Below are positions 4,466 through 25,657 of a DNA stretch of 64,000 nucleotides, in pieces (positions within the stretch are counted from its first letter, which is position 1; each line of letters starts with the position of its first letter). The notes beneath the pieces were generated by a model. It was not told the DNA's origin. It did not search any database and saw only the letters and a list, made by a program, of their open reading frames with translations. This DNA comes from a virus, in UHGV virus genome UHGV-1430452; one strand, 5' to 3'. The translations under genes and the position numbers were made by a program.

Positions 4466-4655
4466 AATGTTAATCTCCTTTTAAATAAATATAGTTTTTA
4501 ATGGATTTGATTTAATTGCTGCGTTGGACTTTTGTTTAACTTCCTCGCATATGATTGCTCCTTTCTTGTGATAGAAAAACAAAAAGAGTCTCAACCATAA
4601 TCGGTCAAGACTCCTTATCTCTTCATTAAAGCCGTTGTATTTTTCGCGATTCGTA

Positions 4656-11373: not shown

Positions 11374-12312
11374 TCAAATCATGTTGAGAATATCCCCATC
11401 CACATTGAAATCAAGAAGAATAGTTCTCTCATAACCGTTCACGAAGTTACGATTTGCCTCGTTGTAAGTGTTATAGATTCCGAAATCTACGAAATTATCA
11501 CCTACTGGATGTTTCTCGTCATAAATCCATCCAACAATCTGACCTGCCTGTGTACGCGGGATTCCGAGCATATCATATACTTCATTCAGGAACAGATGAC
11601 CTTTCGTTTTCAACATGTCATTTGCATAACGCTGCTGATCTTTAAGGAACATTAGATTGAATTCAGGATCTTTAGTCCATCCTGTACATCCATCATCGAA
11701 GAATTTAGCATAATCGCTGTAACTGTCGAGAGTTGCTACATTTGCTGTTTTCTTAACAGTAGTTTCTGTACCATCTTCATTTACAACAGTCTCTTCGATT
11801 TCTTTTGCTTTGATGTTGTACTTCAGTTCTTTATCAAGCTCTTCACCAAATCTCTCAATAACACGACCACGATATTCCTTGAAGCCTTTGTCAATAGTTG
11901 CATAAGCGGCTGCAAGTGCTAAGTTACGTTTACGAAGAATATGATGACCACTAAGAATAGCAGCGATAGAAACTGTTCCAAGGATTACTGCTGGAGCATA
12001 AAGTTTTGCTACCTTTACGGCTGTTTGAGTATACATGATAGTTAAATCTTTCTTACCATCTTCTTCTGTGTACTCTTTACCTTCTGGAACCATATCTGGA
12101 TTTTCCATAAATTCATGAATTTTCTCGATTTTTTCTTTTGGCTCAGCGAGCACCTCATCGAGTTTAGTAGTTGCTTTACATGCCATTACAGCAGAGCCAA
12201 CTACACCAACAATACCTGCGCCAACCAAGATTTCAGGGCTATGCTTTTTAAATTTAAAACCTACACGATGGAGGCTTCTAGTTACTGTGTTCATAATTTC
12301 TAATTTTGCCAT
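11374..12312 (-). CDS. Membrane protein, paralog family member 1 (two hydrophobic helices near N-terminus)
   Basis: 312 aa; shares SPEIL-hydrophobic-VKAT N-terminus and C-terminal G..GW region with 14387..15214 and 16675..17451. Confidence 0.55.
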   Translation of the reverse strand: MAKLEIMNTVTRSLHRVGFKFKKHSPEILVGAGIVGVVGSAVMACKATTKLDEVLAEPKEKIEKIHEFMENPDMVPEGKEYTEEDGKKDLTIMYTQTAVKVAKLYAPAVILGTVSIAAILSGHHILRKRNLALAAAYATIDKGFKEYRGRVIERFGEELDKELKYNIKAKEIEETVVNEDGTETTVKKTANVATLDSYSDYAKFFDDGCTGWTKDPEFNLMFLKDQQRYANDMLKTKGHLFLNEVYDMLGIPRTQAGQIVGWIYDEKHPVGDNFVDFGIYNTYNEANRNFVNGYERTILLDFNVDGDILNMI

Positions 12313-14386: not shown

Positions 14387-15214
14387 TTAATAGTAGCTAT
14401 CGAAACCATATTCCGGAGGCATCAGATGATCAATAACAATACACGGTTCATTATCTTCCGTAATTTGAGCACTATATCTCACATCGATTTTGCCTTTATC
14501 GATTCTCCAACCGATGCTATTACCAACTTCGGTATGCTTAAGACCAATTTCGTCATAGAAATCATTCAGAGAAATATACATCTCGTTACCGTTGATCATT
14601 CTCTCATTAAGAGTAAGAACAGCATTTTTAATCTTGTCGATATCCGATCTGAAATATCTGTCGGAATGACTGTCATAACACAACGTGTTACCTTTACCTG
14701 TCATGATAATCTGAGTGTCTGCAACCGGATGTTCTTCAACTTGCTTCTTAGCGACTTTATCTCTGATGTTATTTTCCTTCTTCTCTCCGATAGTCTCTAC
14801 CACTTTCTCTCTGTAGTCAGACAGTGCTGTTGTAGATAACTGATATGCTGTTGCCAATGCTGCGTTACGTCTTACATGTACGGAATTAGCACCGATAAGA
14901 CAAGCGACTGACGCAATGCCAGTGATAGCTGCTGGAATATAAGGTTTCCAAGCTGCTTTTACTGTTTCGACAGGTGTGAGATTTAAAGCGTTTCTTTCGT
15001 CTTCTTCTGTGAAAATACCGCCTTCATGAGCTTCTTTCTCTTTAAACTTCTTCTCTTCCTCGATTAACTCCATAGCTTTTGGTGTTGCTTTTACTGCAAG
15101 CACAACAGTAGATATCATACCTGCGATACCAATGCCAGTAAGAATTTCCGGACTGCGTTTTTTCATTACATATTTTGCAGTGTTTAAAAATTTTGTTACA
15201 TTTGGTTTGTTCAT
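14387..15214 (-). CDS. Membrane protein, paralog family member 2
   Basis: 275 aa; paralog of 11374..12312 and 16675..17451. Confidence 0.55.
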   Translation of the reverse strand: MNKPNVTKFLNTAKYVMKKRSPEILTGIGIAGMISTVVLAVKATPKAMELIEEEKKFKEKEAHEGGIFTEEDERNALNLTPVETVKAAWKPYIPAAITGIASVACLIGANSVHVRRNAALATAYQLSTTALSDYREKVVETIGEKKENNIRDKVAKKQVEEHPVADTQIIMTGKGNTLCYDSHSDRYFRSDIDKIKNAVLTLNERMINGNEMYISLNDFYDEIGLKHTEVGNSIGWRIDKGKIDVRYSAQITEDNEPCIVIDHLMPPEYGFDSYY

Positions 15215-15303
15215 TTTTTATCTCCTTTCATGAACAGTTAAATTGTTTTTACCAAAAATCCCACTCGGGAAAATTTTGATCTTGAAAAAATAGAAATCGA
15301 AAA

Positions 15304-15375
15304 GAAACAGTGTAGGACTCGAACCCACAACCTACAGATATAAGTCTGTTGCTCTACCAATTGAGCTAACTGTTT
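15304..15375 (-). tRNA. Probable tRNA; anticodon region reads CUUAUA (possibly UAU, Ile/AUA) but the loop looks one nt short in my manual fold
   Basis: Acceptor stem AAACAGT/ACTGTTT, D-arm GCTC/GAGC, T-arm GTGGG-TTCGAGT-CCTAC all pair; anticodon stem ACAGA/TCTGT. Confidence 0.55.
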
Positions 15376-15709
15376 CTTCTCATAATAGCGCTTGTAAATT
15401 TCGCGAATATAGATCTTCAGAAACAAAAAAGAAGAACCCCGAAGGATTCTCCTAGACTTTCTTCTGAAGCTCAGAAACTGCTTTCTTCAACTCTTCAAAC
15501 TCCTTTTCTTTTTTCTGATCTGATAATGCACCTGCTATAGCCATAATACCTGTTACTACAACACCTGCATATTTTCCGACAGACTTCAGAAGCGGATTAT
15601 TGATAATACCTTTGAATTTCATTTTTCTCGTCTCCTTTCTTCATTCCATTAAAGGAAATGTTTTTGTCGCGATACCGGTTTCGCTATATCAAAATATCAT
15701 CGTTTATCG

Positions 15710-16198
15710 TCACCCGTGTATGGGTAAATCCATTTTGATTTTGTCAGGATTCATAATGAGGATACTATCGCAGTCCCAGCCATACAGATCCCAATATAAC
15801 TGATGATCAGCTGATAAATTTAACTCGATGGCATCATAGCCAAGTTCAATGCATTTCTCGAAATCTATCAGTGTACTTATTGATTTCCATACCGGGTCAG
15901 CAATTGTTGGAAGTTCCTTTAATTTTTCTACGGAATCTATAACGAATATATTGGCTTCCGGAAGAGTGAATATGAAACTATTTTCTTCAATACATTCACG
16001 AAAATTTTCTCTTTCACACCAGTCTTTCCAACCTAATTTGGCATCTATCGGACTAGCCCAAAGACCTCCTCTAGGTTTAACCCAGCATTGCTCATTTTGA
16101 ATAGGTTTAAATAAGTTTGGATTAAAAGTTGCATGTCCGTAATGAATATAAATCTTGTCTTGCATATTACTATCCTTTCGTTCAAAAACATATGTCAC
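15710..16198 (-). CDS. hypothetical protein
   Basis: 162-aa ORF. Confidence 0.45.
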   Translation of the reverse strand: MTYVFERKDSNMQDKIYIHYGHATFNPNLFKPIQNEQCWVKPRGGLWASPIDAKLGWKDWCERENFRECIEENSFIFTLPEANIFVIDSVEKLKELPTIADPVWKSISTLIDFEKCIELGYDAIELNLSADHQLYWDLYGWDCDSILIMNPDKIKMDLPIHG

Positions 16199-16223
16199 TT
16201 AGTAACAAAAAGAAAAGAGGCCC

Positions 16224-16427
16224 CTATTTCAGGACCTCAAATTTCTCTTTTTTATTTTTCTTGATTTTATTCTCAACGGATTCTTTCCATTGATTCGCTT
16301 TAGTTGCCACTGCCTGTCTGACTTCTGGAATAGCAAGTGCCGAACCGACAACCGTTACTGCCGGCACAACAATCTGTCCAATCCAAAGTCTTACTTCTCT
16401 CATAGCATCAATATTTTTGCGTTTCAT
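16224..16427 (-). CDS. small hypothetical protein with hydrophobic segment
   Basis: 67 aa. Confidence 0.35.
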   Translation of the reverse strand: MKRKNIDAMREVRLWIGQIVVPAVTVVGSALAIPEVRQAVATKANQWKESVENKIKKNKKEKFEVLK

Positions 16428-16478
16428 AGTTTTATCCTCCTTTAAAAATATAATCTTTTCATTAAAGGCGTTGTTTAT

Positions 16479-16694
16479 TTAGCGAGTGTAATGGATATGC
16501 TCATTGTTTAATTCGTCGAGATGTTTAATAAAATCTAAATATCTTTTATTTCGTCTATTCTCCACAAAGTTTATAACTAACCAAGCAATCCCTACGATAG
16601 GCAAGCCAACGAATACTAATAGAAATAGTAAGCATGTAATCATAGAAACAAGCGTATTCATAAATCTTCTCCTTTCAATACTCTTCGTAATCAA
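16479..16694 (-). CDS. small membrane protein
   Basis: 71 aa; hydrophobic CLLFLLVFVGLPIVGIAWLV. Confidence 0.4.
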   Translation of the reverse strand: MITKSIERRRFMNTLVSMITCLLFLLVFVGLPIVGIAWLVINFVENRRNKRYLDFIKHLDELNNEHIHYTR

Positions 16695-17451
16695 TGAACG
16701 GCTCTGTGAAATCTACAATATAACATTCAATACCGTCGTCCATTTCTACTTTTGTATGGTGGAAATATAGCCAACCATCCCAGTACATTTCATACATCTG
16801 AGCTGCGGACCAACCCATAAATTCACCGTAATCCTGTCGATCAATCTCTAGTAAATCGTAATAATCGTTTAAAGATGCACCACCGGATTGAGATAGCATT
16901 TTATTAATCTCATACTCTGCTCTCAATTGAGTTTCTTTCGTCACACGGTAATAACGTTTGGAATATTCATCGTAGAATAGTGTTTTGCCATCCTCGTATT
17001 CGTCGTCATATTCTTCTTTGTCTTCTTCCTCGTAATGGTCTTTTGCTACAGCAGCACGAATGAGTTTGTCTCCGTCTTCACCATATAACTTTTTAACTTT
17101 GTTTTTGTACTCTTTGTGAGTTTGGTCTAGTAAGGCATAAGCAGATGCGATGGCTGCTTGGGAATGTTTGTTTAATAGATTCGCGCCAAATATGCAAGCT
17201 AGGGTTCCTGTTCCAATCAATAAGGAAGGAATATATGTTGGTCCTGCTACTCGAATAGTCTCCCATTTTGTTAATTCATCTCCTTTCTCTTCTTCAGCTA
17301 GTTCAATAAGTTCCATTGCTTTCGGAGTAGCTTTAACCGCCATTACAGCTGTACCTACCACTCCGGCAGCTCCTAATACTGTTAATATAGTAGAGCTGTT
17401 TTTCTTTACGAATCTTTTCGAAACTGTTAGTAAGTCATTCATTTCCAGCAC
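16675..17451 (-). CDS. Membrane protein, paralog family member 3
   Basis: 258 aa; paralog of 11374..12312 and 14387..15214. Confidence 0.55.
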   Translation of the reverse strand: MLEMNDLLTVSKRFVKKNSSTILTVLGAAGVVGTAVMAVKATPKAMELIELAEEEKGDELTKWETIRVAGPTYIPSLLIGTGTLACIFGANLLNKHSQAAIASAYALLDQTHKEYKNKVKKLYGEDGDKLIRAAVAKDHYEEEDKEEYDDEYEDGKTLFYDEYSKRYYRVTKETQLRAEYEINKMLSQSGGASLNDYYDLLEIDRQDYGEFMGWSAAQMYEMYWDGWLYFHHTKVEMDDGIECYIVDFTEPFIDYEEY

Positions 17452-17563
17452 GCTCCTTGGCGATAAATTTGGTAAAAATAAAAAGAGAAAGAAAAGAGTC
17501 AGCTTGTTGTGTAAACCAAGTCTAACTCAATTCTTTTTGTCATTATCCGAAATAACAATATCC

Positions 17564-17590
17564 CATAACAGGTGATGTAATTTTCGCGAA
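17564..17590 (-). promoter_or_regulatory. Instance of conserved promoter-like motif
   Basis: CATAACAGGTGATGTAATTTTCGCGAA. Confidence 0.5.
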
Positions 17591-17593
17591 TCC

Positions 17594-17824
17594 CTACTGC
17601 TCAAAAAATAAAACTACATCTACCGGATCTTTGAAGTGCTGCTCCTCCACTACTTCTTTAAATTCTTCAAATGATTCCGGTTCGTATTCTTGTAAATATA
17701 AAATCTGTTCAAGCAATCTTCCGTAAAATCCTTGAGAATTAGATAGCATTTTTACCACACCAATGACTTGTTCAACATCATAACCGTCTGCTTTCTTTTC
17801 CATAGCGTTTGCCATTTTGAACAC
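17594..17824 (-). CDS. hypothetical protein
   Basis: 76 aa; preceded by a long GC-richer leader. Confidence 0.4.
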   Translation of the reverse strand: MFKMANAMEKKADGYDVEQVIGVVKMLSNSQGFYGRLLEQILYLQEYEPESFEEFKEVVEEQHFKDPVDVVLFFEQ

Positions 17825-17993
17825 TCCTTTAATTGGTTTTTGATAAAAATAAAAAGAGAATACAATGACTTCAGGGTCGGCCCAACGAAAACCGTTGCCC
17901 GGTGGGTAGCATGTTTTATTACGTTATTACGTGCCGCTACGCCTTCGTGTCTCACCACTGGATTTCCACCAGTATCTATCCATTGCTTTCTCT

Positions 17994-18020
17994 CATAATA
18001 GGTGATGTAATTTTCGCGAA
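17994..18020 (-). promoter_or_regulatory. Instance of conserved promoter-like motif (minus-strand TTCGCGAAAATTACATCACCTATTATG)
   Basis: -10-like TATTAT and palindromic TTCGCGAA core; one of about 20 copies. Confidence 0.5.
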
Positions 18021-18047
18021 TAGAAAAAGAAAATGCCTAGTTTTTAA

Positions 18048-18311
18048 CTAGACAAATTCTTTAATAATTATTGTTCCACCAACTACATCGATTTTTATTT
18101 TATTCATCGCTTTCAACATACTAGCCACTTTTTGCACTGGTAACTTACTTGTGAAACCATAGAACACCAAGTCGCCCATGGTATATACATGCCCTACTGA
18201 ATACTTAACTTCAATATCGGCTGTATATTTGCCAAGGCAATCCATTGCTCCTAAATTTTTCACAACTTCGTTTTTATTCGCGCATAAAGTAATTTCATAT
18301 TTAGTAAACAT
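18048..18311 (-). CDS. hypothetical protein
   Basis: 87 aa; conserved motif 18347..18373 and RBS AAGGAGG upstream. Confidence 0.45.
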   Translation of the reverse strand: MFTKYEITLCANKNEVVKNLGAMDCLGKYTADIEVKYSVGHVYTMGDLVFYGFTSKLPVQKVASMLKAMNKIKIDVVGGTIIIKEFV

Positions 18312-18346
18312 ATAAATTCCTCCTTATTCGATTTCATTGTTTTTCT

Positions 18347-18373
18347 CATAATAGGTGATGTAATTTTCGCGAA
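18347..18373 (-). promoter_or_regulatory. Instance of conserved promoter-like motif
   Basis: Identical core CATAATAGGTGATGTAATTTTCGCGAA on the plus strand; 36 nt upstream of the ATG of 18048..18311. Confidence 0.5.
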
Positions 18374-18395
18374 AACAAAAGAGAAAGGGCCCATG

Positions 18396-18536
18396 TTACT
18401 GAGCCACTTTCGCTTTCTTATGATTTTTAACTGCTTTCTTAGAAACCTCTACTGCTTTATTCACTGCATCACTTGCCAAACTACCGACTACCAATCCGCC
18501 AGCAATCTCAATAATGTGTCTAACTAAAACATTCAT
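18396..18536 (-). CDS. small membrane peptide (46 aa), found by eye
   Basis: ATG with RBS GGAGGAATCT; hydrophobic IIEIAGGLVVGSLA; motif 18573..18599 upstream. Confidence 0.3.
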   Translation of the reverse strand: MNVLVRHIIEIAGGLVVGSLASDAVNKAVEVSKKAVKNHKKAKVAQ

Positions 18537-18629
18537 TTTAGATTCCTCCTGTTAAGCAATTTATTATCTTTCCATAATAGGACTTGTAATTTTCGCGAAT
18601 TAAAAGAAAAGACACCGTGTTTCAGGTGC

Positions 18630-18857
18630 CTAATCCTCTGAATCAACCATTTGTTCAATTTTCAGTAATACTTTCTGATCAATTTCTCCATCCGCATTGA
18701 TATGAAATCGTATTTTACCATCCTTCATCTCAGCTTCTATCTCACTAATACGGATGTCTGGTTTGACTCCAATATTTTTGTATATAGCTCTAGATATAAG
18801 TTTGGCTACCATACCTCTCATAAATCTAGTAGATAATTTAATTTTCATTTCGTCCAT
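18630..18857 (-). CDS. hypothetical protein
   Basis: 75 aa. Confidence 0.4.
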   Translation of the reverse strand: MDEMKIKLSTRFMRGMVAKLISRAIYKNIGVKPDIRISEIEAEMKDGKIRFHINADGEIDQKVLLKIEQMVDSED

Positions 18858-18943
18858 AATTACCTCCTCCTTCTAGGTTGTTTCCTATAATAGGGGAAGT
18901 TTAAGTCGCGAAAACAAAAGAAAGAGCAGTGGGTGACACCGCT

Positions 18944-19051
18944 CTAACTGTTTCTCAAAAATCGAATGAGAATCCATACAAGCCATAATCCTCCGGTTGC
19001 AAATACTAATACAAAGTCGATAAGCAATCCGAATAATCCACGCTTTTTCAT
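18944..19051 (-). CDS. small membrane peptide (35 aa), found by eye
   Basis: RBS GAAAGGAGAAG before ATG; hydrophobic LFGLLIDFVLVFATGGLWLVWILI; motif 19079..19103 upstream. Confidence 0.3.
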   Translation of the reverse strand: MKKRGLFGLLIDFVLVFATGGLWLVWILIRFLRNS

Positions 19052-19335
19052 GATTATCTTCTCCTTTCATTTTCTTTTCACAATAGGAGAAGTTTTTATC
19101 GCGTGCATTATCAGTTCCTTCAAATACAAAATAAAAGAGACCAATCGGCCTCTCTTACATGTTTCGTTTAGAAAGTTCTTCTGCTACCTTCTTTGCAATC
19201 TTTTCATCCAATAACTTATCTGTACTTTGTTTCCCTGCGAATGTTAATCCCGCACTAACAATAGCTGTTATAAGCTTTGCAATTCTAATTACTTTTGGTG
19301 ACATAAATATACCTCCTTTCTATAATAGAAGAGGT

Positions 19336-19695
19336 TTAAATCGCGCGTCTATCGAAGCAAGTTTCCCATCGTTCTCGCTTAACTGGCTTCATTTTCATAG
19401 TCCACATCATTTGTCGGACCGTTACGGTGGGATATAAACCGTTCTCAGGTTCTCCCGATCTATCCTCGAAGAACTCCAGGAATCTTTCATGTAAATATAA
19501 AGTGTCTGTCAGCCACGGATCAATCTCGCCCCACCAGGTATTTTTCGTCGCTGGATCATATCGCTGCTGAATAACAGCTAGTCCTTTTCGTCCCATTTTG
19601 AATAAAGTACATTTACTGTAAACTGGATGATCACATTCATAAGTTTCTCCGTACATCGATACATAAACTTTTGGCTTTTCGTAGTGATAACGCAT
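19336..19695 (-). CDS. hypothetical protein
   Basis: 119 aa. Confidence 0.4.
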   Translation of the reverse strand: MRYHYEKPKVYVSMYGETYECDHPVYSKCTLFKMGRKGLAVIQQRYDPATKNTWWGEIDPWLTDTLYLHERFLEFFEDRSGEPENGLYPTVTVRQMMWTMKMKPVKRERWETCFDRRAI

Positions 19696-19791
19696 ATTAC
19701 TATTATCCTTTCTTTAACTTTAGTTATATAACTTTTGTTTAAACTCTCGCGTTAGGAAATATAAAAGAAGAAAAAAAAAGAAAAGACTATG

Positions 19792-19868
19792 GGAATAGCG
19801 CGGGATTCGAACCCACGACGTTGAGTTTCCTCTTATTCTTCCATTAGAACTAACCGTCTTAACTATTC
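19792..19868 (-). ncRNA. tRNA-like element: acceptor stem and T-arm (GGTTCGAATCC) recognisable, anticodon arm not
   Basis: GAATAGT...GTGGG-TTCGAAT-CCCGC-GCTATTC-C; I could not fold a canonical D or anticodon arm by eye. Confidence 0.35.
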
Positions 19869-19988
19869 CAGAGACTTCTTCCGATATATTGCTATACGGG
19901 AATTGTTCTCTTCTTTTCTATAATAGGAAATGTTTATTTAGCGAAAGAAAATAGCCCAGGCGTTTAACCCGAGCTAATTCTCTTAAAC

Positions 19989-20357
19989 TTATTCGTTACC
20001 ATTGAGTTTCTCAATAGCTTCAACCTTCCTGCTGTCAAACATCGTAGAATTTACAATACTCATCACAGCTTTGTAATATGTTTTCGGCTGATCCTTCTTG
20101 AGCAACTCTATCGCCTGAACTTTACGACTATCAAACATGCTGCTGTTCATTATCGAAGCTACCGCACTGTCATAATCTGCTGTGCTAAATATATCCGCTA
20201 ATAAATCAACTTCATATGTGTCCTGTTTTCGTTTCTTTTCACGCAATACAACTGCCACAATTGGAATCGCAATACCAATCCCATTTGCTACATATTCTGT
20301 GATTTTCCATAAACTCTCTTTTGTTTTCTCGCTAGTTAAAACTTCTTTGATTTTCAT
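19989..20357 (-). CDS. hypothetical protein with internal duplication (STMFDSRKVEAIEKL twice) and N-terminal hydrophobic helix
   Basis: 122 aa. Confidence 0.4.
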   Translation of the reverse strand: MKIKEVLTSEKTKESLWKITEYVANGIGIAIPIVAVVLREKKRKQDTYEVDLLADIFSTADYDSAVASIMNSSMFDSRKVQAIELLKKDQPKTYYKAVMSIVNSTMFDSRKVEAIEKLNGNE

Positions 20358-20457
20358 ATCAATAACCTCCTATAAGTTTATTCTCATAACAGGCGTTGTA
20401 ATAATAGCGAAAAAGAAGAGCCTAAGTCATTTCGACTCAAGCCCTTCCATTTTGAAA

Positions 20458-20871
20458 TTACTTTTTTGGGAGTAACTTCTGAATGAATCCTCGACCCATT
20501 ATTGTTGTGATGGTTCCAGTCTCTTCGAATTTGATAGACTTGATTGTGCCCCAGATAGTAACCGCTGTCGGTATAACAATACCCGCTCCTGTTAAGCAAT
20601 TCTTAACAACTCGATCTTTTCGTTCATCTTTAAGCTGCTCTGCTCTTAATTCAGCATCAACATTTTGCTGATCCTTTTTAAGTTCTTGTTCAGCCTTAAT
20701 TTTCTCAAGTTCGATTGCTCGATCACATAACTTTGTCAGGCCGTCTACCGTATTTTTGTACTTATCTGTACCTACTTCAAGTTTTCCTAACTCTTCGAAT
20801 TCGTCCTGAATCTCATCTTTTAATAATGTTTCAATACTCATTTTGAACTCCTCCTTATATTCGTATTTCAT
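20458..20871 (-). CDS. hypothetical protein, coiled-coil with C-terminal hydrophobic helix
   Basis: 137 aa. Confidence 0.4.
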   Translation of the reverse strand: MKYEYKEEFKMSIETLLKDEIQDEFEELGKLEVGTDKYKNTVDGLTKLCDRAIELEKIKAEQELKKDQQNVDAELRAEQLKDERKDRVVKNCLTGAGIVIPTAVTIWGTIKSIKFEETGTITTIMGRGFIQKLLPKK

Positions 20872-20882
20872 AATAGGGAATG

Positions 20883-21092
20883 TTATTTTTGCGACAGATC
20901 TACTCTAAGCATTACGTGTTTATCTTTTCGTAGCTTATATGCCTTACCACTATCTATTTCTAAAAATAAATACGGTGCTGAGTCTGGATCTGAGCTGTCT
21001 ACTTTCAGTGTGCCGATTGGCTTTTTTACTAAGAGTGTCGTTGCCACAACTGCACCTATCAGCATACCTACTAATAAAAATAAAAGTTCCAC
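20883..21092 (-). CDS. small membrane protein; start reassigned to GTG preceded by RBS AGGAGG
   Basis: Track ORF 20883..21158 begins inside a conserved intergenic motif; the downstream GTG has a strong RBS and gives a 69-aa hydrophobic protein. Confidence 0.35.
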   Translation of the reverse strand: MELLFLLVGMLIGAVVATTLLVKKPIGTLKVDSSDPDSAPYLFLEIDSGKAYKLRKDKHVMLRVDLSQK

Positions 21093-21252
21093 TACGCTAC
21101 TTCCTCCTTTCTTCAATAGAATTGTTTTATCGAAAACTCCCTCCCGGGAAATTTTCACTTTAGAATTTTAATATTGTTTCCTGTCACCTATGTACGGAAT
21201 ATCTATTCTAGATTAGAGTTTGTTTTAATCTAGGTTAAAGAAAAAAGAGAGC

Positions 21253-21489
21253 CTAAGCCCTCTTATCTGTCATAAAACTTGGTAACTGAAGTTCTGGTTT
21301 ATAAGTCATTAACTCTGCTTCATATAGCCTCATGATAATAGCTATCTCATCTTCATGAATACTTTTTATCAACTTAAAGACTTTATCATAATCAACATCT
21401 GATTTATTCTTCATTTGACAAATATAATCCACGAGTCTGGTATACTTATCATCCGCAGTTCCTATCATTGCCGCAAATTTAACTTCCAT
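21253..21489 (-). CDS. hypothetical protein
   Basis: 78 aa. Confidence 0.4.
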   Translation of the reverse strand: MEVKFAAMIGTADDKYTRLVDYICQMKNKSDVDYDKVFKLIKSIHEDEIAIIMRLYEAELMTYKPELQLPSFMTDKRA

Positions 21490-21570
21490 AATTTATCCTC
21501 CTTAAATTTAAAGTTTTATGTTTCTATAAAGTAGTATGTATTTTTGGCGAAAAAGAAAAGAAGAGACCGA

Positions 21571-21771
21571 TTAGGCCTCCTCTTTAAATAACTCAGGGTA
21601 TTTCTCCATCAGTTCTTTTCTGTCTCGTTCAATGTCTTTTTCTATATGCTCGATTTCTGCTTCCAATTTACCTGTGCTTTTACCTAAACGGTAACCCAGA
21701 TAAGATCCTACAGCATAAACCAATCCGGCATATAAACCAAAACCTAAACCAGCTTTTAAATTAGCTTTCAT
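21571..21771 (-). CDS. small membrane protein
   Basis: 66 aa; hydrophobic LGFGLYAGLVYAVGSYLG. Confidence 0.4.
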   Translation of the reverse strand: MKANLKAGLGFGLYAGLVYAVGSYLGYRLGKSTGKLEAEIEHIEKDIERDRKELMEKYPELFKEEA

Positions 21772-21813
21772 GATAGATCACTCCTATAATTTATTCTCAT
21801 AATAGGCGTTGTT

Positions 21814-22062
21814 TTAGTCGCGATCATCAAACGGTACTTCTATGTTTTCAATCTCGTCAGAAATAATCTCCCCGTCACCGATAAGTAGTTCTCTTTTGTT
21901 TATTTGATTAACGCTAGTTCGATATATACCCTCAGCTACTGCTAGTCCGATAAATGTACTTACTCCCCAAAGAATTCCTTTGATTAATTTATTAGTATCC
22001 ATTTTGAATTTTCCTCTCATGATATATTCTCTATTGGAAATCAAAAGGAAGAGTATCTGCAT
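21814..22062 (-). CDS. small membrane protein
   Basis: 82 aa. Confidence 0.35.
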   Translation of the reverse strand: MQILFLLISNREYIMRGKFKMDTNKLIKGILWGVSTFIGLAVAEGIYRTSVNQINKRELLIGDGEIISDEIENIEVPFDDRD

Positions 22063-22082
22063 AGATACCCGCCTTTTTGTTT

Positions 22083-22298
22083 TTAATTATTGCTTGTGGT
22101 CCAACCCATGTTGTTCTGTGTGAATGAGTTGTTAATGCCGTTGATAGTTCTTACTCTATCCTCGTACAATGAATTGTCGCTAATGATGCTAACTCCGAAT
22201 TTCCATTTGAAGTCTGGAATTTCGTTAGCTGCTTTCATAGCTTCATCCCATTTCTCAAGGAAGACTTCTATCGCATATCCTCTCTCTACACTATCCAT
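22083..22298 (-). CDS. hypothetical protein
   Basis: 71 aa. Confidence 0.35.
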   Translation of the reverse strand: MDSVERGYAIEVFLEKWDEAMKAANEIPDFKWKFGVSIISDNSLYEDRVRTINGINNSFTQNNMGWTTSNN

Positions 22299-22325
22299 GT
22301 CGTTACCCTCCTTTATAATAATTTT

Positions 22326-22353
22326 CTATAAAGGAGCGTGTAATTTTCGCGAA
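22326..22353 (-). promoter_or_regulatory. Instance of conserved promoter-like motif
   Basis: CTATAAAGGAGCGTGTAATTTTCGCGAA upstream of 22083..22298. Confidence 0.45.
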
Positions 22354-23397: not shown

Positions 23398-23994
23398 ATG
23401 ACAATAGGACAAAAAATAAAAGAATTACGCAATCAACTTAATATGTCGGTGGATGATCTTGCTGTGAAACTGGGTAAGAACCGTGCGACTATCTACCGCT
23501 ATGAACGAGGAGATATCGAGAACCTCCCTCTCGATGTACTAGAACCATTAGCAAATGCTCTTGAGACCACACCTGGTTATTTAATGGGATGGGAAGAAAC
23601 TACGAAAAAGAAAGAGCCTTCAATTATCGATGAAGTTACCATGGGTGACGTTTTTAAAGCGTTACGTCTAGGAAGTAATTTATCGATAGAGGAATTTTCG
23701 CATGAGATTGGATTATCTGCCCAAGACATAAGCAATTATGAAGCAGGAAAGACTCCTATACCTGTAAATATAATTAATCTTGTTGCTGATTTCTTTGGCA
23801 TATCAATAGCGGAAATAGTTAAGGCACACAAAAACAGCGAAAATAGAACGCCTTCTGGTTTCGAAATGAAAAAGGAACGATTTGAACGTTTTAAAGTTTG
23901 GAATAAAGAGTTTGGACGAATACATTTTACTGATGAAGAAATCAATAAAATAATGGAATATACAAGGTTCTTACTTAGCCAAAGAAGACAGTAA
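23398..23994 (+). CDS. XRE-family (cI-like) repressor with two HTH domains
   Basis: 198 aa; IKELRNQLNMSVDDLAVKLGKNRATIYRYERG and a second HTH EEFSHEIGLSAQDISNYEAGK; RBS AAAGGAG. Confidence 0.8.
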   Translation: MTIGQKIKELRNQLNMSVDDLAVKLGKNRATIYRYERGDIENLPLDVLEPLANALETTPGYLMGWEETTKKKEPSIIDEVTMGDVFKALRLGSNLSIEEFSHEIGLSAQDISNYEAGKTPIPVNIINLVADFFGISIAEIVKAHKNSENRTPSGFEMKKERFERFKVWNKEFGRIHFTDEEINKIMEYTRFLLSQRRQ

Positions 23995-24070: not shown

Positions 24071-25657
24071 GTGGAACCAATGACAACGTTTGATATGAAC
24101 AACGCTGTAGACAATGCGTTCGGTATGGACGTATATGCTATCTATCTTCGGAAAAGTCGAGCCGATGTAGAAGCAGAAAAACTTGGAGAAGGAGAAACAC
24201 TAGCAAGGCATAGAAAGATACTAACAGAACTTGCTGCTAGAAAAGGATTGTATATCGGTAAGATTTACGAGGAAATTGTATCTGGTGAAACAATCGAAGC
24301 TAGACCTGAAATACAAAAACTGATAGAAGATTGTTATAAAGGGAAATATAGAGGAATCCTAATAGTAGAAGTTACTCGTCTATCTCGTGGTAATCAAGGA
24401 GACGCTCAAAAAATACTCGACTGTCTCAAATATTCGAATAGAAACAATGGTGTATTAGTTATCACTCCTACTAAGACTTATGACGTTGCACACAGCCAAG
24501 AAGACGAAGAATATATGGAGTTTGAATTGTTTATGTCTCGTCGAGAATATAAGATGATTCAAAAGCGTATGGATCGTGGCCGTAAACAAGCAGTCGTAGA
24601 AGGAAACTTCATGGGTAGTTACCGTCCCTATGGATATGACATCTTAAAAACCAAGACCGGACGAACACTTATACCGAATGAAGATGAAGCTCCTATCGTG
24701 AAAATGATTTACGAATGGACAGTTAACGATAATTTATCTCCTTTCAAGATAGCTGAGCGTTTAACTAATATGGGTGTTCCTACTTATTATGGTGAGAAGG
24801 ATTGGTCTAAAGAAACAGTTAAAACCATTTTGACGAATCAGACATACATGGGTAAAGTTCGTTGGAATGATCGAATGACTGTTAAGACTATGGTCGACGG
24901 AGAACTTAAAGCTACACGACCTCGTTCAAATCATTCCGATCACTTCATGCTATATGATGGAAAACATATGAAACACGCACTCGTCGACGAAGAAACATTC
25001 AAAGCAGCCTCCTCTCGCTTTCATAACGATAGGACAAGATCAAATCTAAAACTTGTTAATCCTCTTGCAGGACTTCTATTTTGTAAGAAATGTGGTAAAT
25101 CTATGGGTTATCAATCATATAGACATAAGAAAAACGGACCAATGGATCGATACAATCATAGACAGTCTGCTAATGGATGCAAGGTTAAGTCAGCAGTTGC
25201 TGAGGATGTTATAAAAGCTGTTATACATGCTTTGAAACTTTATATAGAAGATTTCGAATTTAAGTTAGACAACACTCCAGATGTTGACGAAAATTCAATC
25301 AATACGCAGCTCGAAGCTTTACAAAAAGAAATACGAAAATCCGAACGAAAACTTGCTAAGCTATTCGATTCTTGGGAAGATGAGAAGATAACAGATAATG
25401 AATTTGTTCAAAGGAAAGCCGTCCATAATCAGAAGATAGAAAATATAAAGAGGCAAATGGAAGAACTCGAATATTCGATACCAGAAAGAGAAGAATATGA
25501 GGATAAAATAATATTGCTGTCTGAAGCACTTGTCGCTATCACAGACGAATCGCTTGACGCAGATATTAAGAACGAGTATCTTAAAAGAATCATTGATAGA
25601 ATAGAGTTTAGTAGAGAGAATAACTCAGAGTTTATACTAGATATAGACTTATGCTAA
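24071..25657 (+). CDS. Large serine recombinase (integrase)
   Basis: 528 aa; resolvase-like N-terminus with catalytic-Ser context YLRKSRADVE; C-terminal zinc-ribbon CKKCGKS and coiled-coil; true start may be the ATG at 24080. Confidence 0.88.
   Translation: MEPMTTFDMNNAVDNAFGMDVYAIYLRKSRADVEAEKLGEGETLARHRKILTELAARKGLYIGKIYEEIVSGETIEARPEIQKLIEDCYKGKYRGILIVEVTRLSRGNQGDAQKILDCLKYSNRNNGVLVITPTKTYDVAHSQEDEEYMEFELFMSRREYKMIQKRMDRGRKQAVVEGNFMGSYRPYGYDILKTKTGRTLIPNEDEAPIVKMIYEWTVNDNLSPFKIAERLTNMGVPTYYGEKDWSKETVKTILTNQTYMGKVRWNDRMTVKTMVDGELKATRPRSNHSDHFMLYDGKHMKHALVDEETFKAASSRFHNDRTRSNLKLVNPLAGLLFCKKCGKSMGYQSYRHKKNGPMDRYNHRQSANGCKVKSAVAEDVIKAVIHALKLYIEDFEFKLDNTPDVDENSINTQLEALQKEIRKSERKLAKLFDSWEDEKITDNEFVQRKAVHNQKIENIKRQMEELEYSIPEREEYEDKIILLSEALVAITDESLDADIKNEYLKRIIDRIEFSRENNSEFILDIDLC

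What the first reader, a model, noticed from the sequence alone, without database searches (positions are those of the whole stretch)
17825..17993. GC-richer, stem-loop-rich 170-nt leader between a promoter-like motif and the next gene
Most motif-to-start distances are about 30 nt, but here 170 nt separate motif 17994..18020 from the ATG at 17824. The interval is more GC-rich than its surroundings and contains several short inverted repeats (ACUGG...CCAGU, CAACG...CGUUG, GUAGC...GCUAC) and a tandem ACGUAAUA duplication. Candidate for a riboswitch, attenuator or small RNA.
Basis: seen in the sequence. Interest (0 to 1): 0.45.

Follow-up and report, generated by a model that had tools for sequence, protein, structure and literature searches.

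The report
New structured small RNA in gut phages
The 170-nt "leader" is a self-contained gene for a ~135-nt, intricately folded small RNA that about 45 human-gut phage contigs share and that matches no catalogued RNA family; its function is unknown.

Summary
On the minus strand, 175 nt separate a phage promoter-like motif (18020-17991) from the true ATG (17815; 17824 is a GTG inside the ribosome-binding site). The interval is GC-richer than its surroundings (0.48 against 0.36). It is not a gene-specific leader. It is a stand-alone small-RNA unit: promoter motif, then a ~135-nt four-helix-junction RNA (core 17989-17859), then a long closing stem P1 followed by a U-tract. The same RNA occurs in about 45 IMG/VR gut-phage contigs. 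Across 25 distinct sequences, 97% of pair cells are paired and 15 pairs show compensatory changes. Most copies are followed by another promoter motif, and some are flanked by tRNA-like mini-genes. Copies sit next to different genes. In one relative, the copy lies 1.3 kb from the homologue of the gene it precedes here. A shorter 102-nt subtype keeps the junction core but has a shorter P3 and a different P4 loop. Rfam 15 has no match. Unpaired core bases are more conserved than paired ones, which suggests a tertiary fold that binds a protein or ligand in trans. That function is inferred, not shown. In this window, the 73-aa gene has no promoter motif of its own, so it probably depends on read-through.

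The parts
17991..18020 (-). Promoter-like motif TTCGCGAAAATTACATCACCTATTATGAGA. It contains the palindrome TTCGCGAA and a TATTAT box at 18000-17995.
   Evidence: 8 copies on the minus strand against 0 expected. One copy ends 2 nt before a tRNA-like gene. A motif of this or a second flavour precedes most homologous RNA copies. Promoter function is inferred.
17859..17989 (-). Core of the structured small RNA (the covariance-model match). With the full closing stem P1, the RNA body spans 17993-17855 (139 nt).
   Evidence: Model R1 scores 152.7 bits, E = 2e-42, and finds a single copy in the window. The alignment of 25 distinct homologues has 97% of pair cells paired and 15 covarying pairs.
17980..17993 (-). 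P1 5' strand, AGAGAAAGCAAUGG.
   Evidence: It pairs with 17868-17855 in the MFE fold. Six of the nine core P1 pairs show compensatory changes.
17974..17979 (-). J1/2 junction, AUAGAU. It is nearly invariant and is kept in both subtypes.
   Evidence: Alignments A3 and A4; type 2 alignments.
17957..17973 (-). P2 hairpin: 5-bp stem ACUGG/CCAGU with the 7-nt loop UGGAAAU. The loop is T-loop-like: U1, purine 4 and A5 are kept in every 7-nt loop variant (L162 has a 6-nt loop).
   Evidence: Two covarying pairs and 100% of cells paired. The T-loop reading is an inference. The hairpin resembles the cobalamin-riboswitch P4/L4 consensus.
17944..17956 (-). J2/3, GGUGAGACACGAA. It is conserved and purine-rich. 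Type 2 reads GGCAAGCUACGAA.
17904..17943 (-). P3 arm: GG.GUAGCG ... UGCUAC.CC, with the apical hairpin P3b ACGU-AAUA-ACGU at 17932-17921. Its length varies; type 2 has a 3-bp hairpin here.
   Evidence: Four covarying pairs in P3 and one in P3b. Type 2 data are.
17874..17900 (-). P4 arm, GGGCAACGGUUUUCGUUGGGCCGACCC. The outer GGG/CCC and inner CGG/CCG pair. The competing local hairpin CAACG/CGUUG is unsupported.
   Evidence: CGG/CCG shows a G-C to A-U exchange in L142 and L155. The alternative hairpin was tested.
17869..17873 (-). J4/1 junction, UGAAG. It is nearly invariant and is kept in both subtypes.
17855..17868 (-). P1 3' strand, UCAUUGUAUUCUCU.
17842..17860 (-). Pyrimidine/U-tract UUCUCUUUUUAUUUUUAUC, running on from P1. 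It is the inferred intrinsic-terminator tail.
   Evidence: The same 22-mer recurs only after the hairpin RNA at 17489-17468. 16 of 21 homologues have a T-tract directly after P1. The other 5 have one after an extra tRNA-like element or hairpin.
17594..17830 (-). Downstream gene: ribosome-binding site AAAGGAG 17830-17824, ATG 17815-17813, 73-aa protein of unknown function. It is not part of the RNA. It has no promoter motif of its own.
   Evidence: the gene is called as 73 aa in public assemblies; 157 homologues. Pfam, PHROGs and NCBIfam give no hit above threshold.

Best explanation
The interval holds an independent gene for a structured non-coding RNA of about 135-140 nt, made from the minus strand.

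Inferred: transcription starts at or just after the promoter-like motif (18020-17991). The RNA's ends pair in a long stem, P1 (17993-17980 with 17868-17855). P1 closes a four-way junction carrying P2 (a T-loop-like hairpin), a long variable arm P3 and P4. The U-tract that follows P1 ends the transcript.

Shown: the RNA belongs to a family shared by about 45 gut-phage contigs. The helices covary, and the junction and loop bases are almost invariant.

Inferred from that conservation pattern, from the RNA's independence of any particular neighbouring gene, and from its place among early genes and tRNA-like mini-genes: the RNA acts in trans as a folded particle that binds a host or phage protein, or a small ligand, early in infection. 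It would be a decoy, sponge or scaffold, not a base-pairing or cis-regulatory RNA.

In this phage, the 73-aa gene behind it has no promoter motif of its own. It is probably expressed only by read-through of the RNA's terminator.
For: Structure (shown):
- RNAalifold on 21 sequences predicts 38 pairs, 13 of them compensatory.
- On the 25-sequence alignment, 97.0% of cells are paired and 15 pairs change on both sides. Slid controls give 2-5 such pairs. None of 500 shuffles reaches the observed value on any of the five measures.
- About 130 of 929 pair cells are G-U. These would be A-C mismatches on the other strand, so the minus strand is the functional one.

Family (shown):
- Three pattern scans with different sequence anchors (the first two share the hexamer CCGGGC) return the same roughly 41 type 1 contigs. 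The third scan adds 4 contigs of a 102-nt type 2. A fourth scan adds one more type 1 contig.
- Model R1 scores these at 139-164 bits for type 1 and 55-59 bits for type 2.

Independence from neighbouring genes (shown):
- The L008 copy is 86.7% identical but lies 1.3 kb from the homologue of the 73-aa gene.
- R1 finds no copy near 80 more distant homologues of that gene.
- Downstream of the RNA there is usually a T-tract and then another promoter motif. Otherwise there is a tRNA-like mini-gene, or one of three unrelated genes.

Constraint (shown):
- Against L007, the core is 96.9% identical while the next leader (17560-17452) is 75.9% identical.
- 39 of 53 unpaired core columns are invariant, against 41 of 76 paired columns.
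- L175 (type 2) replaces type 1 within nearly identical flanks (those of L165) and keeps the junction core.

Not coding:
- Public gene calls leave the interval empty.
- The ATG inside P1 is ACG in many copies.
- The two subtypes differ by 29 nt, which is not a multiple of three.

Unit boundaries:
- In this region, terminator-like sites are enriched (12 found against 3.3 expected) and alternate with the motifs.
- A motif abuts the 5' end of every tRNA-like gene examined.
Against: - No transcript data exist. The 5' and 3' ends, and promoter and terminator activity, are inferred.
- The motif is not a sigma-70 consensus. The spacing between TTCGCG and TATTAT is 14 nt, and TATTAT ends only 2-5 nt before the tRNA-like 5' ends.
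- The single-sequence folding energy is unremarkable.
- The family was retrieved with exact sequence patterns. The apparent invariance of some core bases is therefore partly ascertainment.
- With 25 closely related sequences (mean pairwise identity 89% among the 21 type 1 sequences of A3), several 'compensatory' counts may trace back to few evolutionary events.
- No partner, ligand or target is identified. The trans-acting binder function is a guess from the conservation pattern and carries perhaps 40% confidence.
- In four contexts, including this window, a gene follows directly. A cis effect on read-through is not excluded.
Confidence: 0.8

Rival explanations
1. Cis-acting riboswitch or attenuator. 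The four-way junction would be an aptamer. Ligand or factor binding would stabilise P1, which together with the U-tract is the terminator. That would tune read-through into the gene behind it.
For: The junction has highly conserved unpaired bases and a closing P1 directly followed by a U-tract, which looks like an aptamer. In the window and L007, in L127, L167 and L226, and in L107, a ribosome-binding site and gene follow with no new promoter. P4 has two mutually exclusive pairings in both subtypes. P1-J1/2-P2 resembles part of the cobalamin aptamer.
Against: The genes that follow directly belong to three unrelated families: the 73-aa protein, DUF6353 and a 103-aa unknown. Most copies are followed by another promoter motif. 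In L008/L146 and L142/L155, P1 is followed by a tRNA-like RNA and not by a U-tract. No antiterminator alternative to P1 was seen. No Rfam riboswitch reaches threshold; the best is AdoCbl at 13 bits against a cut-off of 50.
Confidence: 0.12
2. Base-pairing regulatory sRNA, for example an immunity-type antisense RNA such as P4 CI or P1 c4. A conserved loop would pair with phage or host mRNAs.
For: It is a stand-alone sRNA unit in the early region next to the lysis-lysogeny switch. It has conserved single-stranded stretches.
Against: Complementarity of the RNA to minus-strand transcripts of the window is at chance level. There are 12 matches of 10 nt against 9.9 in shuffles, and none falls in a conserved loop opposite a ribosome-binding site. 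Conservation is spread over all junctions and loops and is not confined to one seed. Host targets could not be searched.
Confidence: 0.1
3. tRNA-related stable RNA. It would be a partner or mimic within the phage's cassette of non-decoding tRNA-like RNAs, acting on tRNA-handling machinery such as RNase P or Z, modification enzymes, anticodon nucleases or the ribosome.
For: tRNA-like mini-genes abut the RNA on the 5' side (L129/L145, L152/L165/L175) or the 3' side (L008/L146, L142/L155). P2 is a 5-bp stem with a 7-nt T-loop-like loop. Every tRNA that ARAGORN calls in these phages has a 6- or 8-nt anticodon loop.
Against: The RNA itself is not a cloverleaf. ARAGORN and the Rfam tRNA models find nothing in it. 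The adjacency may only reflect a shared habit of RNA gene cassettes. This overlaps with the best explanation and is not exclusive of it.
Confidence: 0.15
4. Self-cleaving or otherwise catalytic RNA of a new class, sitting between transcription units.
For: It has a compact multi-helix junction with nearly invariant junction bases. Phage intergenic regions are rich in small ribozymes (own knowledge).
Against: No known ribozyme model matches. The RNA has its own promoter and terminator, so no processing role is needed. No conserved cleavage-site context is evident.
Confidence: 0.04
5. Not an RNA: a small protein-coding ORF, or a DNA-level site such as an origin, operator array or recombination site.
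For: ORFs of 68, 76 and 49 aa overlap the interval. The motif contains a palindrome.
Against: Substitutions are compensatory across helices. G-U pairs are strand-specific. The subtypes differ by 29 nt. The internal ATG is not conserved. Gene callers leave the interval empty.
Confidence: 0.02

Closest known systems
Orphan structured ncRNA motifs found by comparative genomics in phages and metagenomes (the Rfam 'motif' RNAs; the 8,495 unnamed IMG/VR candidates of Fremin and Bhatt 2023, PMC10690425)
   Same: Intergenic and covarying, about 100-150 nt, of unknown function, found in IMG/VR phage contigs, often near tRNA-like structures and terminators.
   Different: It matches none of the 4,227 Rfam 15 families. 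I could not check whether it is one of the unnamed 2023 candidates, because the supplements are not held.
Phage T4 stable RNAs 'species 1 and 2' (rnaC/rnaD), encoded in the T4 tRNA gene cluster (own knowledge, not re-read here)
   Same: Stable phage RNAs of about 120-140 nt and unknown function, co-located and co-expressed with tRNA genes.
   Different: No sequence similarity to any GenBank phage record, even at E <= 10. Here the RNA has its own promoter motif and terminator. The neighbouring 'tRNAs' have non-canonical anticodon loops.
Cobalamin riboswitch receptor domain (Rfam clan CL00101; AdoCbl RF01482)
   Same: A four-way junction whose second arm is a hairpin, CUGG-UG(A/G)AAAU-CCAG, preceded by a purine-rich junction. 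In the sub-threshold alignment P1-J1/2-P2 lines up with the family consensus.
   Different: The score is 13 bits against a gathering score of 50, and only on the L008 copy with its 3' tRNA-like flank. The window copy gives no hit. By eye there is no B12 box, and no kissing-loop or expression platform was identified. The rest of the core differs.
Riboswitch-containing trans-acting sRNAs (EutX in Enterococcus, Rli55 in Listeria; own knowledge)
   Same: A precedent for an aptamer-like fold inside a stand-alone small RNA that ends at a terminator and acts in trans.
   Different: Those carry a recognised AdoCbl aptamer and a known protein-sequestering site. Here no ligand or partner is known.
Bacterial and phage Y RNAs (YrlA; PMC4201824)
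   Same: An RNA of about 100-130 nt whose ends form a long stem, combined with a tRNA-like module. Some are phage-encoded.
   Different: There is no Rfam hit. P1 is not sequence-conserved, so there is no Ro-binding helix. No Ro60 gene appears among the called genes of the locus. The tRNA-like element is a separate and optional neighbour.

Membership tests
Any Rfam 15 family (4,227 covariance models) | Score at or above the family's gathering threshold | tested here: not met
   Whole window: only the tRNA at 15304-15375. The interval at E <= 10: only noise of 8-18 bits. Homologues with their flanks, and type 2: nothing.
Cobalamin riboswitch (CL00101) | Covariance-model score above threshold | tested here: not met
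   AdoCbl RF01482 scores 13.0 bits, E = 5.3, against a gathering score of 50, on L008 only. The window copy gives no hit.
Cobalamin riboswitch (CL00101) | B12 box (about AGYCMGGNGACCKGCC) and the J6/3 core | tested here: not met
   Read by eye in alignment A4. J4/1 is UGAAG followed by P1, and no B12-box string is present. The consensus was recalled from memory.
Cobalamin riboswitch (CL00101) | T-loop hairpin GGUGNNAAUCC next to a purine-rich junction in a four-way junction | tested here: met
   The P2/L2 hairpin CUGGUGGAAAUCCAG aligns to the consensus CuGGUGaaAAUCCaG. The four-way junction comes from RNAalifold. This feature alone does not define the family.
Riboswitch (generic) | Consistently located upstream of functionally related genes | tested here: not met
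   The element downstream is another promoter, a tRNA-like RNA, or one of three unrelated genes.
Riboswitch (generic) | Conserved aptamer-like junction with covarying helices | tested here: met
Riboswitch (generic) | Specific ligand binding and ligand-dependent switching | not testable with these tools
   This needs in-line probing or ITC.
Intrinsic terminator / attenuator leader | Stable stem immediately followed by a U-tract | tested here: met
   A 14-bp P1 with one mismatch is followed by UUUUUAUUUUU. The simple scanner did not list it, because its loop limit is 8 nt.
Intrinsic terminator / attenuator leader | Alternative antiterminator pairing, or a leader peptide | tested here: inconclusive
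   None is apparent in the MFE or centroid folds. The only competing helices are inside P4.
tRNA / tRNA-like | Cloverleaf recognised by ARAGORN or Rfam tRNA models | tested here: not met
   Searches find nothing inside the RNA.
Antisense immunity RNA (P4 CI, P1/P7 c4 type) | Complementary target sites in the phage's own early transcripts | tested here: not met
   Antisense k-mer matches are at shuffle level. The c4 model in Rfam gives no hit.
Retron msr-msd ncRNA | Reverse transcriptase gene adjacent to the ncRNA | tested here: not met
   No RVT domain appears among the called genes within +/-10 kb in L001. The neighbours are the 87-aa and 73-aa genes and DUF6353.
Y RNA (YrlA) | Rfam YrlA match, a conserved Ro-binding stem and a linked Ro60 gene | tested here: not met
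   No Rfam hit. P1 varies freely in sequence. No Ro60/TROVE domain in the locus.

The most novel reading that the evidence does not exclude
The RNA is a stand-alone, riboswitch-grade aptamer or protein decoy that the phage makes in bulk early in infection. It would neutralise a host defence or take over a host machine. For example, it could soak up an immune signalling nucleotide, or block a tRNA-targeting nuclease, working together with the phage's cassette of non-decoding tRNA-like RNAs. That would make it an RNA-only anti-defence factor of a new structural class.
Probability: 0.12. Interest if true: 0.85.

Novelty: new variant of a known kind. Interest (0 to 1): 0.6.

Why it matters
Complex RNA folds whose junction bases are more conserved than their helices are rare. 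In the past such folds have turned out to be riboswitches, ribozymes or RNP cores. This one is carried by temperate phages of human-gut Clostridia. It is expressed as its own unit among early genes. It is exchanged between phage lineages that use different promoter motifs, and it sits beside tRNA-like RNAs that cannot decode normally. It offers a concrete, cheap target of 102-135 nt for biochemical study of what phage RNAs, as opposed to phage proteins, do to their hosts. It also corrects a likely annotation error: a 'long 5' UTR' that is in fact a gene.

Tried and rejected
- Rfam, at gathering and at E <= 10, on the window, on the interval, on homologues with their flanks and on type 2: no family.
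- blastn and tblastn against GenBank phages with the locus, the RNA alone and the 73-aa protein: no match.
- An exact scan of IMG/VR for the promoter motif: none.
- A covariance-model search around 80 distant homologues of the 73-aa gene, and in the closest GenBank relative MT835485: no copy.
- Antisense-target search in the window: chance level.
- An L2-L4 kissing interaction (GGAAA with UUUUC). It fits type 1 (98% paired, but only one-sided changes). Type 2 has no U-run in the P4 loop, so I dropped it.
- The mini-hairpin GUG-AGA-CAC in J2/3. It is invariant in the 21-sequence type 1 set (one broken pair in L116) and partly broken in L226, so it stays undecided.
- Clustering of neighbouring ORFs to find a constant protein partner. 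No universal neighbour emerged. DUF6353 is often downstream, but it is multi-copy in these genomes.
- The cobalamin link. It reduces to one shared hairpin module.
- The 139-aa ORF upstream of the first motif, as a possible sigma-like activator. Pfam, NCBIfam and PDB give no hit, and the AlphaFold model has pLDDT 65, so I did not pursue it.
- A search for a phage RNA polymerase among the large ORFs of the window: none.
- A literature search for the conserved strings and for tRNA-like decoys: nothing specific.

Full report
**Setting.** The window is part of a temperate siphophage, free or integrated, of roughly 90-100 kb from human-gut metagenomes. It encodes a serine integrase (24071-25657, plus strand) and a two-HTH repressor (23398-23994, plus strand). 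These face a long minus-strand early region. That region is followed by replication genes (DNA polymerase-primase 9163-4937; ssDNA-binding protein). Further on come the lysin, tape-measure, capsid, portal and terminase genes. Identical or near-identical contigs occur in several human-gut assemblies. By DNA polymerase, the closest cultured relative is Faecalibacterium phage FP_oengus at 53% amino-acid identity. The finding lies on the minus strand of the early region.

**Checking the observation.** The 30-nt motif TTCGCGAAAATTACATCACCTATTATGAGA is at 18020-17991. With up to 3 mismatches it occurs 8 times. All copies are on the minus strand between 15378 and 22353, and none is expected by chance. 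Five copies end 24-33 nt before a start codon, and this one ends 175 nt before its start codon. The true start is the ATG at 17815, 8 nt behind the ribosome-binding site AAAGGAG. Public gene callers call the 73-aa product and leave the interval empty. The core has GC 0.48, against 0.36 for the early region. Folding of this sequence alone is not better than chance: z is -0.94 for 169 nt and -1.87 for the 139-nt P1-to-P1 stretch.

**Homologues.** The 73-aa protein has 157 relatives. Fetching DNA around them gave the first decisive result. In L007 the interval is 97.6% identical and in the same place. In L008 (73-aa homologue 74% identical), a copy that is 86.7% identical over 165 nt lies 1.3 kb upstream of the homologue, in front of other genes. 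By eye, the differences between the window and L008 were compensatory in four helices.

Three scans of IMG/VR followed, each with a different sequence anchor, although the first two share the hexamer CCGGGC. The anchors were:
- GAGACACGAAGG...CCGGGC;
- CCGGGCAACNGTTTTNNTTGGGC;
- AGATGCNGGTGRAAATCCNG.

These returned essentially the same roughly 41 contigs. A fourth, looser scan added one more (L226). The remaining matches to the scan patterns were coding sequence or unrelated RNA.

The third scan also uncovered a 102-nt 'type 2' form (L170/L193, L175/L192). The covariance model built on type 1 recognises it at 55-59 bits. GenBank phages hold nothing similar. The closest GenBank relative, MT835485, has no copy. 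So the RNA is an accessory element of one group of gut phages.

**Structure.** RNAalifold on 21 distinct type 1 sequences gives a four-way junction closed by P1. On the 25-sequence alignment, which includes L167, L226 and two type 2 sequences:
- 97.0% of 929 pair cells are standard pairs;
- 15 of 38 pairs have changes on both sides;
- sliding the 3' partners by 1-3 columns leaves 34-47% paired and 2-5 such pairs;
- none of 500 column shuffles reaches the observed values.

Support is strongest for P1 (6 of 9 pairs) and P3 (4 of 8). P2 has two covarying pairs. The apical P3b hairpin and the inner CGG/CCG of P4 have one each. About 130 cells are G-U, which fixes the minus strand as the functional strand.

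The 'tandem duplication' is the P3b hairpin.

The P2 loop UGGAAAU keeps U1, a purine at position 4 and A5 in every 7-nt variant; L162 has a 6-nt loop. That is the T-loop pattern (my inference).

Unpaired core columns are more conserved than paired ones: 39 of 53 are invariant, against 41 of 76. About 18 of those positions were fixed by the first search pattern, so this comparison is partly biased.

Type 2 keeps P1, J1/2 AUAGAU, P2/L2, GG-N7-CGAAG, GGCAACG...CGACCC and J4/1 UGAAG. It shrinks P3 to a 3-bp hairpin and changes the P4 loop. L175 (type 2) lies in nearly the same flanks as L165 (type 1). The junction is therefore the conserved heart of the RNA, and P3 is peripheral.

**A transcription unit, not a leader.** Upstream of the RNA there are two arrangements. 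One is a promoter-like motif in either of two flavours: TTCGCGAAAWTTACA-N5-TRTTATGRGA, or CCGCAGATTTTGCAA-TTCCTWTTATGGA. The other is a tRNA-like mini-gene that itself follows such a motif.

Downstream, 16 of 21 type 1 contexts have a T-tract directly after P1. The other five have a tRNA-like RNA or an extra hairpin first, and then the T-tract. After the T-tract most copies have the next promoter motif. Only the window/L007, L127/L167/L226 and L107 run straight into a ribosome-binding site. The genes there belong to three unrelated families.

In the window, a motif ends 2 nt before the tRNA-like gene at 15376-15303. The same holds for every tRNA-like gene inspected in relatives. Terminator-like sites are enriched in the region, with 12 found against 3.3 expected. 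That the motif is a promoter and that P1 plus the U-tract is a terminator are inferences from this layout.

Against L007, the RNA core is 96.9% identical, much like the flanking genes at 93-96%. The neighbouring long leader (17560-17452) is only 75.9% identical.

**Comparison with what is known.** Rfam 15 has no match at any threshold tried. The only recurring sub-threshold resemblance is to the cobalamin aptamer (13 bits against 50). It comes down to the P1-J1/2-P2 module, which is a T-loop hairpin behind a purine-rich junction. The B12 box and the rest of the core are absent, so membership fails. Antisense targets in the phage are at chance level. No reverse transcriptase or Ro60 gene is nearby. 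The RNA is not a cloverleaf. No paper in the library contains the conserved strings. The RNA could still be one of the 8,495 unnamed IMG/VR candidates of Fremin and Bhatt 2023, whose supplements I could not read.

**Mechanism.** Shown: this is a conserved, covarying, four-way-junction RNA that is independent of its neighbouring genes. Inferred: it is transcribed from the motif, ends at the U-tract and accumulates as a ~135-140-nt particle with paired ends. My best guess, at about 40%, is that its function is to bind a host or phage protein, or a small ligand, in trans early in infection. This rests on three things: a conservation pattern that favours unpaired junction bases, its accessory distribution and exchange between phage lineages, and its company of non-decoding tRNA-like RNAs. 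In this window there is a side effect: the 73-aa gene has no promoter motif and must be read through the RNA's terminator. The rival readings are ranked in the report sections: cis riboswitch or attenuator, base-pairing sRNA, tRNA-machinery mimic, ribozyme, and non-RNA.

**Verdict.** The finding is real and more interesting than a leader. It is a well-supported, uncatalogued structured small-RNA family in gut phages. Its function is unknown.

Noticed in passing
window 15303-15376 (-); relatives L096:5696-5768, L103:5604-5679, L117:9513-9587, L118:10975-11067, L165:8461-8535, L008:2339-2422: Every tRNA that ARAGORN or Rfam finds in these phages has a non-canonical anticodon loop. ARAGORN labels them 'tRNA-???'. 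Most loops are 6 nt (the window's is CUUAUA), one is 8 nt, and two are much larger (about 18 nt in L008). Each starts 2-5 nt after a promoter motif and ends in a T-tract with no encoded CCA. They look like non-decoding tRNA mimics.
   Followed up: partly
window about 19787-19870 (-), with a degenerate motif at about 19945-19916 and a T-tract at about 19783-19760: An aberrant tRNA-like RNA: acceptor stem GGAAUAG/CUAUUCC, a canonical T-arm GUGGGUUCGAAUCCCGC, and a 46-nt non-canonical middle. It lies between a promoter-like motif and the 119-aa gene at 19695-19336. ARAGORN and Rfam do not call it.
   Followed up: partly
L008:1193-1245, L155:~4487-4550, L165:~2563-2618, L129/L145 upstream flank: Mini tRNA-like RNAs (acceptor stem plus T-arm, no anticodon arm) directly abut the four-way-junction RNA on its 5' or 3' side in several phages. 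They may serve as processing handles or as terminators.
   Followed up: partly
window 17452-17560 (-): A second long leader. After the motif at 17590-17561 come a hairpin, a terminator-like hairpin (GAGUUAGaCUUG...CAAGCUGACUC) and the same T-tract, TTCTCTTTTTATTTTTAYCAAA, all before the DUF6353 gene. It is only 76% identical in L007 and no other homologue was found. It may be a fast-evolving small RNA or an attenuator.
   Followed up: partly
window 15378-22353 (-), motif copies; about 23253-23222 (-); ORF 22821-22402 (-): A sigma-A-like promoter (TTGACA-17-TGATATTCT) starts the early operon. It is followed by a Cro-like HTH gene, a small gene, and a 139-aa all-helical ORF (phrog_11237; no Pfam, NCBIfam or PDB hit). 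That ORF ends just before the first copy of the 30-nt motif, which makes it a candidate activator or sigma-like factor for the motif promoters. The motif's spacing does not fit sigma-70. Its 3' half (ATTACATCACCTATTATGAGAGA) loosely recalls single-subunit phage RNA polymerase promoters, but the window holds no such polymerase.
   Followed up: partly
window 16675-17442, 14387-15214, 11374-12312 (all -): Three paralogous DUF6353 membrane-protein genes lie in the early region. Two of them directly follow an RNA unit with no promoter motif of their own. In relatives, a DUF6353 gene is often the first protein gene after the four-way-junction RNA or after a tRNA-like RNA.
   Followed up: partly
L152:10701-10807, L111:2491-2571: RT-18 RNA (RF03021), a reverse-transcriptase-associated motif, is present in two related phages, several kb from the small RNA.
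   Followed up: no
L186:7417-7522, L174:307-445, L177:4151-4284: Unrelated viral contigs contain the same hairpin module, AGAUGCNGGUGAAAAUCCNG, in other contexts. They give weak hits with model R1 (12-26 bits). These may be other RNAs that reuse this T-loop hairpin, such as group II intron or cobalamin-like elements.
   Followed up: no
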